From NCBI GenBank assembly GCA_951406725.2, contig OX597826.1:7006001-7070000 (forward strand): 64,000 bases of DNA. Direction: 5' to 3'. The notes beneath the pieces are model-generated. The model was given only the letters and a program-made list of their open reading frames with translations, did no database searches and had not been told where the DNA came from. Shown piece by piece: positions 20,198-45,450 of the stretch. The stretch's first letter is position 1, and each line of letters begins with the position of its first letter. The stretch is from Octopus vulgaris. Lineage: Eukaryota. The position numbers were made by a program, and so were the translations under genes.

Positions 20198-20256
<59 letters not shown>

Positions 20257-20408
20257 ATATATATACATAACTACATATATCTATATGCATAGCTATATAC
20301 ATAAATATATACTTATTTGTATGCATGTATAAATAAATATATATATATGTAAATATATATTTATATATATAGATAAGTATATATTTATGTATATAGCTAT
20401 GTATATAG

Positions 20409-20446
<38 letters not shown>

Positions 20447-20447
<1 letters not shown>

Positions 20448-20676
20448 AAAAGTTAGTGTGGGGTATCGCACGAGTGGGATTATATAAGAAAGGTTTGAAA
20501 ATGTAAGGTTTATTTATTATTTCTTGTAAAGATTGTAAAGTTACATTTAAGGAAACATTAATAGTTCAAAAAGTTTTAAAAACTTTTTGAACCTTTATTC
20601 AATGTTTTTAAATTATGACAATCTTTACCAAAATGAAACCGTTAAGTAAATATCGTTTTGCATTTTCAAACCTTTT

Positions 20677-20684
<8 letters not shown>
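20447..20684. mobile_element. Degraded (TA)n-flanked foldback related to the 42428-42866 element
   Basis: Nested inverted matches around GTTCAAAAAGTTTTAAAAACTTTTTGAAC; GAAACCGTTA remnant; unpaired tail containing ACTCGTG on the minus strand, as at 42842-42866. Confidence 0.6.
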
Positions 20685-20722
<38 letters not shown>

Positions 20723-20741
20723 TAAATATCTATGTATATAT

Positions 20742-20790
<49 letters not shown>

Positions 20791-21239
20791 CGTGGGTGTC
20801 AACGCATACCTGCTTACGTATTTGCTTGTGTTATAAACTAGATATACGTACACACACACACACATACACACATATATATGCGTATTTGTATATATATATG
20901 AATTGTATTATATATATATATATATATGAATTATGTATATATATATATGTAACTCATGCCGGCATTTCGTTGCACTGTGTTACCTTACGAACACCATACT
21001 CTCCCGAGGTTCTATTTTTGCCTTTAATCCCTGTAGAATCGATAAAATAAATGTTCCGTATTATCGATAAATTAAATACTGGTGTTGTTTTAACCATTTA
21101 CACACCAGTTCCTCAAAGTCTACCCTTATCTGAAAGATTACGTGCCGACGTATATTAAAGAATATATTTATGATGTTTTTATCATCGCTTTGTCATTATC
21201 TTTGCCAACGCTTTATTTCATGCTATACTATGTTATCCT

Positions 21240-40699: not shown

Positions 40700-41730
40700 C
40701 CTCTGATGTGATGATATACAAAAGCATTTGCATGTTTCCAGTAATCCCTTGTATCAGTACAAATCCGTTTTATCCTCAAAAATTGGGATTTCGGATTTGA
40801 CCGAATAAGATGATGTGATGATCGGAACAGCGGGGGAGAAGAATGTGGGATGACATGGGCTTGCAAAATAACTCTGTCACTATTCTGCCCCCAGAAAACT
40901 TGACTTTTGTGTCCAAAAATTCAACGCTAGTTTTTGAAAAAACTAGACGAAAATTTTATGTTGGACTTAAAGTCATAGTTTCTGGCATAACAGTCACGGA
41001 AATGCAAGAAGTCCATTAAACTATGATGTGATCCTTCCCAGACAAAAAAAAAACGTCGTCAGTGAACCGTAACCAGAGAATTGGTTCATGACCATAAAGG
41101 GATTTGAATGTCTTCAGTAACTATGTTTTGAATTTCGTCATGAAGACATTAGCGAAATTAACTGCCATGGCGCAACCCTTCGTCTGGTGGTAAAATCTTC
41201 GTCTAAACTTCATTGTATTACTTTCTAACACAAACCTCAATAATCTACAGAGAAAATTTGATGGAATACTTTTGTTTGACCGCTTTTCGAAGGCATTCAT
41301 GAATGCTTCTACCCTTTCATTGTCGTCAATATTTAGGATATAAGGAAGAAACTTCCATGGTTACCAAAAAACAGTTCTCGATACGGCTTCGGTGCTTAAA
41401 AAAGTTGTTGATTTTAGATACAAAATCAAAGGTATCCCGTGTATGGGAACTTGATCATTTTGAAACGGGGGTATAGAAAGCCATAAAATACAGGTGTTCT
41501 TTCTGACCATAAAATCTTAGATTCAGCCTTATTAACGAAATTGTTTTCCTCCATTTCCAGAATTATTATGTCAAGTTCCTCTCTCTAATTGGGGTGTGGA
41601 TCAACAGGTAATTCTTCATATGACGTTTTGTCATTTAGAACTTCTTCACAAGCCGATATATACACACTTTTGTCCATAATTATGATAGCGCCTCCCTTAT
41701 CCGCCACCTTAATGACAATATGCGGGCATT
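40700..41730 (-). pseudogene. Penelope-like element reverse transcriptase remnant
   Basis: Minus-strand motifs ADKGGAIIIMD, VTMEVSSLYP, FYHQTKGCAMAVNFANVFM, WLRFTDDV, EFLD and CHP in the expected order; frameshifted. Confidence 0.88.
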
Positions 41731-42272: not shown

Positions 42273-42417
<145 letters not shown>

Positions 42418-42427
42418 GTATATATAT

Positions 42428-42866
42428 ATATATATGAAAAAACAAGTCAAAAATAGAAAATGCTAAGATAATTTTATAGTGAATCTTTCAGTACCGGTTT
42501 CGGTCATTTTGAGACCTTTTCAACTGTAACGATTAAATAATTAAATTTAGAAAAATTAGAAGAAAAGTTTTTTTAAAGGAATATTTCTTTAGTAGTGTTC
42601 AGATATGAGTGGCATTCTGCCTTTCTCTGACAAGGGAGTCAGAGAAAGGCAGAATGCCACTCATATCTGAACACTACTAAAGAAATATTCCTTTAAAAAA
42701 ACTTTTCTTCTAATTTTTCTAAATTTAATTATTTAATCGTTACAGTTGAAAAGGTCTCAAAATGACCGAAACCGGTACTGAAAGATTCACTATAAAATTA
42801 TCTTAGCATTTTCTATTTTTGACTTGTTTTTTCATATATATCAACTCGTGTGTTCCTTTCCACCCT
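42428..42866. mobile_element. Foldback element with 204-bp arms, 6-nt loop and unpaired ~25-nt tail, in (TA)n; PLE-like inverted pseudo-LTR
   Basis: 42428-42631 is the reverse complement of 42638-42841 with no mismatch seen by eye. Confidence 0.9.
42743..42780 (+). ncRNA. Minimal hammerhead motif with compensatory U3:A8 core (mirror copy at 42489-42526, minus)
   Basis: CAG-TTGAAAA-GGTC TCAAAAT GACC-GAAA-CCGG-TA-CTG. Confidence 0.72.
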
Positions 42867-42867
42867 T

Positions 42868-42909
<42 letters not shown>

Positions 42910-44896: not shown

Positions 44897-44903
<7 letters not shown>

Positions 44904-45450
44904 TAAAAAAATGGAGTTAACGCAGGTGTAATCAAATATTTTTACTTTCTACACATGTTTCGAAAATTCCACTGATACTATTCAAAAGAATAAATGGTAT
45001 AACCAATGCAATCTTCTCCTCAGGAAAGTGAAAAAAACGAAACTCGTCAATAAGACATTTTAGCAAAAAATGATGGATTTGTATAGCGATAGACAGAACA
45101 ATATTAATAGCGACTGTCTATCGCTATACAAATCCATCGTTTTTTGCTAAAATGTCTTATTGACGAGTTTCGTTTATTTCACTTTCCTGAGGAGAAGATT
45201 GCATTGTTTATACCATTTATTCTTTTGAATAGTATCAGTGGAATTTTCGAAACATGTGTAGAAAGTAAAAATATTTGATTACACCTGCGTTAACTCCATT
45301 TTTTTATTCATATTATTCAAAATATTCAACGTAAACACGAAGTTTCTACCTTTATAAACAAAGAGTTACAACACCTTTACTTGTGAGATTTTTGCTGCCC
45401 TGGTAACTATATATTTATTTTCCGTGTTAATTGTTAACAAGGTAAAATAC
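44897..45450. mobile_element. Foldback element with 200-bp arms (about 3 mismatches), 17-nt loop and ~135-nt unpaired tail, in (TA)n
   Basis: 44897-45096 is the reverse complement of 45114-45313. Confidence 0.9.
45181..45266 (+). ncRNA. Type I hammerhead motif with canonical core and long stem II (mirror copy at 44944-45029, minus)
   Basis: ACTTTC-CTGAGGA-GAAGATT...AATTTTC-GAAAC-ATGT-GT-A-GAAAGT. Confidence 0.8.

What the first reader, a model, noticed from the sequence alone, without database searches (positions are those of the whole stretch)
42428..42866. Apparently perfect 204-bp-arm palindrome carrying a hammerhead with a compensatory U3:A8 core
Seen: arms 42428-42631 and 42638-42841, loop AAGGGA, an unpaired 25-nt tail on one side only, and (TA)n on both flanks. 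The core reads UUGAAAA instead of CUGANGA. Established: positions 3 and 8 form a Watson-Crick pair in the active HHR, and PLE insertions often have an inverted terminal copy lacking the 3' tail. Inference: the double change preserves the pair and argues for selection on catalysis; arm identity implies a young insertion or ongoing homogenisation.
Basis: partly seen in the sequence, partly recalled or inferred. Interest (0 to 1): 0.75.

Follow-up and report, generated by a model that had tools for sequence, protein, structure and literature searches.

The report
Back-to-back Penelope ends, U3:A8 hammerhead
This mirror-image stretch is a real but ordinary stub of a young, very abundant Penelope-type jumping gene, two copies of its end joined back to back, and the swapped U-A pair in its predicted self-cutting RNA motif is the family norm and already published.

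Summary
Observation confirmed: 204-bp arms, 100% complementary, AAGGGA loop, UUGAAAA core, (TA)n flanks. The tail is 34 nt, not 25. The stretch is two 5'-truncated 3' ends (pLTRs) of a Neptune-type Penelope-like retrotransposon joined head to head. Intact full-length copies encode ORF1, RT and GIY-YIG. Of 43 inverted pairs, 42 have the tail on one arm only, and the junctions vary. Arms differ by 0.6% whatever the loop size, and 12 of 43 are identical, so perfect identity means young, not homogenised. U3:A8 is family-wide (1979 of 1990 motifs) and is kept in related families whose helices have turned over, which supports selection on the motif. It is not strict: a young autonomous relative carries U3·G8. 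U3:A8 in Penelope hammerheads and the inverted-end-plus-tail shape are both published, and the scan found both before, on other DNA and in this genome. Extras: unequal arm lengths favour two primings over fold-back, and guessed-RNA contigs show A-to-G clusters, some across the core. No long reads were available. New family of a known kind; low interest.

The parts
42278..42435 (.). Left target microsatellite, (CA)n then (TA)n; its last 8 nt overlap the arm end
   Evidence: family ends abut (TA)-like DNA in 125 of 151 ends examined
42428..42631 (-). Inverted, tail-less, 5'-truncated copy of the element's 3' end (pLTR)
42489..42526 (-). Mirror copy of the minimal hammerhead motif (U3 at 42523)
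42630..42637 (+). Junction: 2-nt overlap AC (42630-42631) plus loop AAGGGA, which is element sequence of the forward copy
   Evidence: (element vs window junction)
42630..42875 (+). Forward, tail-bearing, 5'-truncated copy of the element's 3' end
42680..42680 (+). Base private to this locus, mirrored at 42589 in the other arm
   Evidence: an exact 22-nt pattern matches only these two places in G000; family allele T or C in 29 of 29 other top copies
42743..42780 (+). Minimal type I hammerhead motif: helix I CAG/CTG, core U3 U4 G5 A6 A7 A8 A9 (42746-42752), helix II GGTC-TCAAAAT-GACC, GAAA, palindromic ACCGGT, A17; predicted cut after 42777
   Evidence: family counts
42842..42875 (+). 34-nt tail, on one arm only; in full-length elements it leads into the ORF1 leader
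42872..42906 (.). Right target microsatellite (TA)n, followed by unrelated (GA)-rich DNA

Best explanation
This is a short head-to-head insertion of two 3' ends of a young Penelope-like retrotransposon family (likely Neptune clade) in a (TA)n microsatellite, likely built at the insertion site by two copying reactions on the element's RNA. Shown: the parent element (pLTR, ORF1, overlapping RT + GIY-YIG ORF, pLTR), about 2,000 motif copies, one-sided tail, variable junction, and arms drawn from the same subfamily. Inferred (about 0.6): the endonuclease nicked both strands; reverse transcription started at the tail end on one side and 34 nt further in on the other; both stopped after about 210-245 nt and were joined through a 2-nt overlap. 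The U3:A8 core is inherited from the source element. It is kept across related families whose helices changed, so the motif is likely under selection in source elements and would cut as a dimer through ACCGGU, if at all (untested). In this copy it is likely inert: a transcript across the locus is predicted to form a 204-bp hairpin that buries the motif and would be an ADAR substrate.
For: [quoted passage not shown] L100 and L102 have an open 437-codon ORF1 and a 785-codon ORF2 with DKG and CGRPNCGIC motifs. Architecture: 42 of 43 pairs have the tail on one arm (19 of 19 in the C1 set picked by position); 19 of 35 simple junctions have 1-8 nt overlaps. Age: 88 differences in 14,089 paired sites; 12 of 43 pairs identical; no loop-size effect. 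Same template lineage: 296 subfamily alleles shared by both arms against 15 discordant. Two primings: among 35 simple junctions the tail-less arm reaches more than 20 nt further in 9, the tail arm in 13, and 13 are near equal; in the 9 neither arm can be a plain copy of the other. In vitro, a Poseidon PLE cuts and extends both strands from two RNA start sites that bound the tail (PMC11167929). Core: 1979 of 1990 family motifs are U3:A8. A sister group of 1153 motifs has the helix II closing pair A-U instead of G-C, with U3:A8 in 13 of 13 read. A distant group of 2449 motifs with other helices has U3 in 2437 and no C3:G8. Scans of 1.17 Mb with 3 and 8 left free gave 16 C:G + 1 U:A (control 1) and 12 C:G + 5 U:A (control 0), no other pair.
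Against: No long read was available, and no listed contig spans the stretch, so this locus is not read-validated. The base private to both arms needs a source copy missing from this assembly, an error made once and copied, conversion, or a mirrored assembly error; two primings do not predict it by themselves. For this locus the arms differ by only 8 nt in reach, so fold-back copying fits equally well here. Clade placement rests on motifs; no tree was built. Selection on Watson-Crick pairing is weakened by 10 U3·G8 motifs among the first 100 listed, which belong to a young autonomous family. With the G-C closing-pair rule dropped, the random scan also gave 10 other 3/8 combinations beside 24 C:G and 1 U:A (control 3). 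U3 can pair with A17 in the computed folds, like the inhibitory C3-G17 pair (PMC3884650). PLE minimal hammerheads cut poorly in vitro (PMC4209133), and hammerhead mutants did not impair insertion in vitro (PMC11167929).
Confidence: 0.88

Rival explanations
1. Same element, but the second arm was made by fold-back: the first cDNA snapped back on itself through a 2-nt match and was copied (self-priming).
For: Both arms share a base found nowhere else in the genome. 19 shared alleles private within the fetched copies, in 43 pairs. Junction overlap of 2 nt and tail arm 8 nt longer at this locus. Self-priming was proposed for head-to-head PLE junctions (PMC3846280, passages).
Against: In 9 of 35 simple junctions the tail-less arm is the longer one, so neither arm can be a plain copy of the other. 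15 subfamily-diagnostic sites differ between arms, 3 of them in one locus, L021.
Confidence: 0.3
2. The arms are older and are kept identical by gene conversion or hairpin repair (ongoing homogenisation).
For: A private base sits in both arms; a U3:C8 variant occurs only in the two arms of one other palindrome, and a C3:A8 variant in both arms of a third.
Against: Arm-to-arm difference does not fall with shorter loops (6.6, 6.3, 6.0 per kb), and shared private alleles show no trend (1.1, 2.0, 1.2 per kb). The window arm differs from the family majority at only 2 of 233 sites, so it is young anyway.
Confidence: 0.08
3. The palindrome is an assembly fold-back artefact.
For: Perfect arm identity, a mirrored private base, and no read or contig shown across the junction.
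Against: The mirror stops exactly at a family-wide end point and the flanks differ. The same one-sided-tail shape occurs in 42 of 43 pairs, whose arms mostly differ. The loop is element sequence.
Confidence: 0.03
4. The hammerhead-like motif is kept for something other than cutting (protein binding, RNA pairing through ACCGGU, promoter), so U3:A8 says little about catalysis.
For: A young autonomous relative has U3·G8 in both pLTRs. U3-A17 mispairing is predicted. All copies extend about 98 nt past the predicted cut, so the copied RNA was not cut at its 3' motif. Hammerhead mutants still insert in vitro (PMC11167929).
Against: Across families the core is C:G or U:A and position 7 varies freely (69 C, 30 A, 1 T in the first 100, all U3:A8), as catalysis predicts. 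U·G is still a wobble pair. U3:A8 ribozymes are reported active in vitro (as cited in PMC3088659; primary paper not held).
Confidence: 0.25

Closest known systems
U3-A8 minimal hammerheads in the pLTRs of Cercyon PLEs, Schistosoma mansoni (Cervera & De la Pena 2014, PMC4209133; parts 1-2 of 4 read)
   Same: Type I minimal motif in a PLE terminal repeat, U3-A8 covariation, palindromic helix III, over a thousand dispersed copies, some pairs on opposite strands.
   Different: Here helix II is 4 bp with no extra base after A9, helix I is 3 bp plus an interrupted extension, copies are highly uniform, and the host element is Neptune-type. A U3·G8 sister family was not seen in the parts read.
Insertion architecture of EN+ PLEs: inverted 5'-truncated pLTR and 30-40 bp tail on one end (PMC8557442 and PMC3846280, passages read)
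   Same: Head-to-head inverted copy, 34-nt one-sided tail, partial tandems, microsatellite target without a discernible TSD.
   Different: This locus is a minimal case, with both copies cut back to about 210-245 nt and no ORF left.
Neptune clade PLEs (PMC8557442, PMC3846280, passages)
   Same: C-terminal GIY-YIG, Cys linker CX4CxxC, DKG motif, (TA)n bias, ORF1 separated by a frameshift (listed as optional for animal PLEs in the Fig. 1 legend of PMC8557442, which does not say which clades).
   Different: No tree was built; no pseudoknot or stable hairpin was predicted after the slippery site (nested folds only).
Poseidon PAc of Anolis, in vitro (PMC11167929; parts 1-2 of 4 read)
   Same: Two RT start sites bounding the tail, both strands extended, AT-rich target, hammerhead in the pLTR.
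   Different: PAc has a C3:G8 core and its start sites lie inside the ORF; here both copy ends lie before the ORF1 ATG and sit at TA-like stretches of the element.

Membership tests
EN+ Penelope-like element | RT followed by GIY-YIG endonuclease in the parent element | tested here: met
   RVT_1 E 4e-8; GIY-YIG E 0.0012 (19.5 bits, cutoff 22.6) at residues 689-776 of L100 ORF2; many of the 120 listed homologues carry both Pfam domains
EN+ Penelope-like element | pLTRs: 3' end repeated upstream of the ORF in partial tandem | tested here: met
   L033, L100, L101, L102
EN+ Penelope-like element | Inverted 5'-truncated copy and 30-40 bp tail at one end | tested here: met
   42 of 43 pairs, tail 34 nt
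EN+ Penelope-like element | Target-site duplication | tested here: inconclusive
   both ends lie in (TA)n, so a duplication cannot be seen
Neptune clade | CX2-5CxxC linker between RT and EN; DKG motif | tested here: met
   CGRPNCGIC and EADKGS in ORF2 of L100 and L102; Nematis shares the linker (PMC8557442)
Neptune clade | RT phylogeny with named Neptune references | not tested
   no named reference sequences were returned by the tools used
Minimal type I hammerhead of metazoan PLEs | Core N3 UGA N7 N8 A9 ... GAAA ... UH with 3-8 pair, helices I and II, palindromic 15-16 region | tested here: met
   helix II covaries G-C to A-U in a sister group
Minimal type I hammerhead of metazoan PLEs | Conserved G10.1-C11.1 and an extra base between 9 and 10.1 | tested here: inconclusive
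   G10.1-C11.1 is present; the extra base is absent
Active hammerhead ribozyme | Self-cleavage after H17 | not testable with these tools
   needs an assay; no Rfam match at gathering score
Non-LTR retrozyme | Short tandem repeat of 150-450 bp without coding parent | tested here: not met
   the motif sits in the terminal repeat of a 4.3-kb RT-encoding element

The most novel reading that the evidence does not exclude
In this Neptune lineage the hammerhead serves mainly as an RNA-pairing device: the ACCGGU palindrome joins two element RNAs so that both nicked DNA strands are primed at once, giving head-to-head insertions, while the catalytic 3-8 pair is free to drift between U:A and U·G in active families. 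The resulting palindromes are transcribed into hairpins whose hammerhead core is hyper-edited by ADAR, so the element's own insertion mode silences its ribozyme.
Probability: 0.1. Interest if true: 0.65.

Novelty: new member of a known kind. Interest (0 to 1): 0.2.

Why it matters
As a locus it matters little. As a family it is handy material for two open PLE questions. How are inverted ends made? Several hundred head-to-head pairs are implied by 22 pairs among the first 100 motifs listed, and intact source copies exist (L100, L102). What is the hammerhead for? Natural U3:A8, U3·G8 and C3:G8 cores occur in young families of one genome and can be assayed side by side.

Tried and rejected
Rfam scan of the window: nothing at gathering score. 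Monomer fold of the motif: not better than shuffles. Read check of the junction: only short-read contigs were served, none listed spans the stretch and the table is cut, so no verdict. No RNA holder is listed on record; expression of this locus is not shown. Idea that an older subfamily carries C3:A8: rejected, 22 of 23 motifs read in its 30 loci are U3:A8. One of the five C3:A8 hits (L074) is made by an inversion junction. One C3:G8 copy (L073) against about 0.01 expected from single-site rates: a single case, not used. Search for a C3:G8 relative in the distant group: none among 12 non-U3 motifs of 2449, so the direction of change is not shown. A3 or G3 with A8 was not searched in the main family. 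Homogenisation: rejected. ORF1: no Pfam match. Structure after the slippery site: none predicted. Przybilski & Hammann 2007 on 3-8 exchanges is not held. Paper searches with the terms C3U/G8A and 'positions 3 and 8' found nothing. No supplements were read; those of PMC4209133 and PMC8557442 may list this family or U3·G8 cores.

Full report
Observation. The arms 42428-42631 and 42638-42841 are exact reverse complements around AAGGGA, with (TA)n on both sides and different DNA beyond. The right arm carries a type I minimal hammerhead motif: CAG, core TTGAAAA (42746-42752), GGTC-TCAAAAT-GACC, GAAA, palindromic ACCGGT, A17, CTG; the left arm carries its mirror. Rfam has no match and the motif alone folds no better than shuffles. 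The whole stretch folds as one 204-bp hairpin.

The family. One arm finds 1097 candidates in the 2.8-Gb genome G000; the 40 scored are 98-100% identical. Longer copies run upstream into RT and GIY-YIG coding sequence. Full-length copies read pLTR, ORF1 (437 codons stop to stop, no Pfam match), ORF2 (785 codons, RVT_1 E 4e-8, GIY-YIG E 0.0012, below cutoff), pLTR; both ORFs are open in L100 and L102. ORF2 has DKG and a CX4CxxC linker, the marks given for Neptune and Nematis (PMC8557442, passages); no tree was built. ORF2 overlaps ORF1 in the -1 frame at a T TTT TTA site, seen in 29 of 30 copies and in the same phase in a family about 56% identical in ORF2. A programmed frameshift is inferred; ORF1 with a frameshift is listed for PLEs in the Fig. 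1 legend of PMC8557442. The host is probably a mollusc, perhaps a cephalopod; this is a guess from genome size and from mollusc-symbiont labels among protein hits and was not tested.

Anatomy of the insertion. The tail is element sequence to 42875 (34 nt) and leads into the ORF1 leader in tandem copies. The loop is the next six bases of the forward copy, with a 2-nt overlap at the junction. I compared 43 inverted pairs, one per locus: 24 from similarity or motif searches and 19 from 20 C1 loci picked by position out of the 22 head-to-head pairs among the first 100 motifs (L266 fell outside the pairing rule). The tail is on one arm in 42 of 43 and the junctions range from about 70 to 3400 nt from the 3' end. 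This is the published PLE shape (PMC8557442; PMC3846280, passages).

Arm identity. Paired arms differ at 88 of 14,089 sites; 12 of 43 pairs are identical (6 of 19 in the C1 set), and no difference in 204 bp is expected about 28% of the time. The rate is the same for short and long loops. A young insertion is enough; homogenisation is not needed. One oddity remains: the A at 42680, mirrored at 42589, occurs only in these two arms genome-wide. It may come from a source copy missing from this assembly, from an error copied once, from conversion or from the assembly. No long reads were served and no listed contig spans the stretch, so an artefact is excluded only by family-level arguments.

How it was made. 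Arms share subfamily alleles (296 shared, 15 discordant), so both come from one template lineage. Among 35 simple junctions the tail-less arm reaches more than 20 nt further in 9, the tail arm in 13, and 13 are near equal. In the 9, neither arm can be a plain copy of the other, which favours two RNA-templated syntheses, one from each nicked strand. This matches the in vitro Poseidon work, where both strands are cut and extended and two start sites bound the tail (PMC11167929, parts 1-2 of 4). For this single locus fold-back cannot be excluded.

The U3:A8 core. With exact helix context, G000 holds 1979 U3:A8, 5 C3:A8, 1 C3:G8, 3 U3:G8 and 2 U3:C8 motifs (A3 or G3 with A8 not searched). So the pair is inherited, not a change in this copy. 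It is kept while the surroundings change. A sister group (1153 motifs) has an A-U closing pair in helix II, variable loops, A8 in 97 of the first 100 listed and U3:A8 in 13 of 13 read in full. A distant group (2449 motifs, other helices I and II) has U3 in 2437 and no C3:G8. A tandem-repeat family (356 motifs) has U3:A8 in all of the first 100 while position 7 varies. In 117 fixed 10-kb stretches, descriptors with 3 and 8 free gave 16 C:G + 1 U:A (reversed control 1) and 12 C:G + 5 U:A (control 0); 7 of the C:G hits are one array; a looser descriptor added 10 other combinations (control 3). This supports selection on the motif in source elements. Against strict pairing: 10 of the first 100 motifs are U3·G8, and they belong to an autonomous family with copies about 97% alike, both pLTRs U3·G8 in L292 and a 775-codon open ORF2 in L293. 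U3 can also pair with A17 in computed folds, like the inhibitory C3-G17 pair (PMC3884650, passages). A two-copy cofold pairs through ACCGGU at -25.3 against 2 x -9.1 kcal/mol, in line with the dimer model. U3-A8 is published for Cercyon PLE hammerheads (PMC4209133, parts 1-2 of 4) and for natural hammerheads generally, cited as active in vitro (PMC3088659, passages).

What this copy does. Probably nothing as a ribozyme: read-through RNA is predicted to pair arm with arm. In two runs guessed to be RNA, from two studies, family contigs show A>G at sites nearly invariant in the other two runs laid alike (42727: 27 of 79 and 24 of 102 depth units against 68 of 802,858 and 0 of 278,056; also 42695 and 42728), and six contigs of X9 read G for all four core A's. 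This looks like ADAR hyper-editing. The limits are real: these are contigs, the RNA status is a guess, the individuals differ, and nothing ties them to this locus. Heavy editing of Penelope in lizard is already reported (PMC5625713, passages).

Verdict. A real, ordinary footprint of a new family of a known kind. The scan noted the same shape and the same core variant before, in other genomes and in this one. The less ordinary points are the U3·G8 autonomous relative, the arm-length asymmetry and the editing hint. Interest 0.2.

Noticed in passing
window 44897-45313, tail to about 45463: A second head-to-head PLE palindrome (arms about 97% alike, tail about 150 nt, (TA)n flanks) with a canonical C3:G8 hammerhead at 45187 (+) and 45023 (-); 3407 candidates in G000. 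Longer copies encode RT with a DKT motif and an EN without the Cys linker, which looks like the Hydra clade.
   Followed up: partly
window 40818-41719, minus strand: Decayed RT fragment of another PLE family (27% and 47% identity to ORF2 in two pieces).
   Followed up: no
L292 (G000:C1:70848000-70857900), L293-L296: Young autonomous relative (ORF2 about 56% identical) with a U3·G8 hammerhead core in all 8 motifs read; in L292 a full-length copy of the main family is fused just upstream of its 5' hammerhead.
   Followed up: partly
L100:3261-3324; L292: ORF1/ORF2 overlap with an in-phase T TTT TTA slippery site, conserved in two families about 56% identical in ORF2; likely a -1 frameshift.
   Followed up: partly
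L104 (3082-4512 and minus strand), L141, L092: Retrozyme-like tandem repeats of about 360 bp with hammerheads sharing a GCAATAC loop: C3:G8 in L104, U3:A8 in the L141 family (356 motifs); some arrays are also head-to-head.
   Followed up: partly
window 42695-42752 laid on runs X4, X9: A>G and T>C clusters in guessed-RNA contigs, including the four core A's; possible ADAR hyper-editing.
   Followed up: partly
L073; L297: Single copies with a double core change that keeps pairing: C3:G8 in the main family and A3:U8 in one arm of a short palindrome of the distant group.
   Followed up: no
window 20202-20951 and 313-461: Further, more decayed self-complementary stretches (68% and 82% identity).
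   Followed up: no
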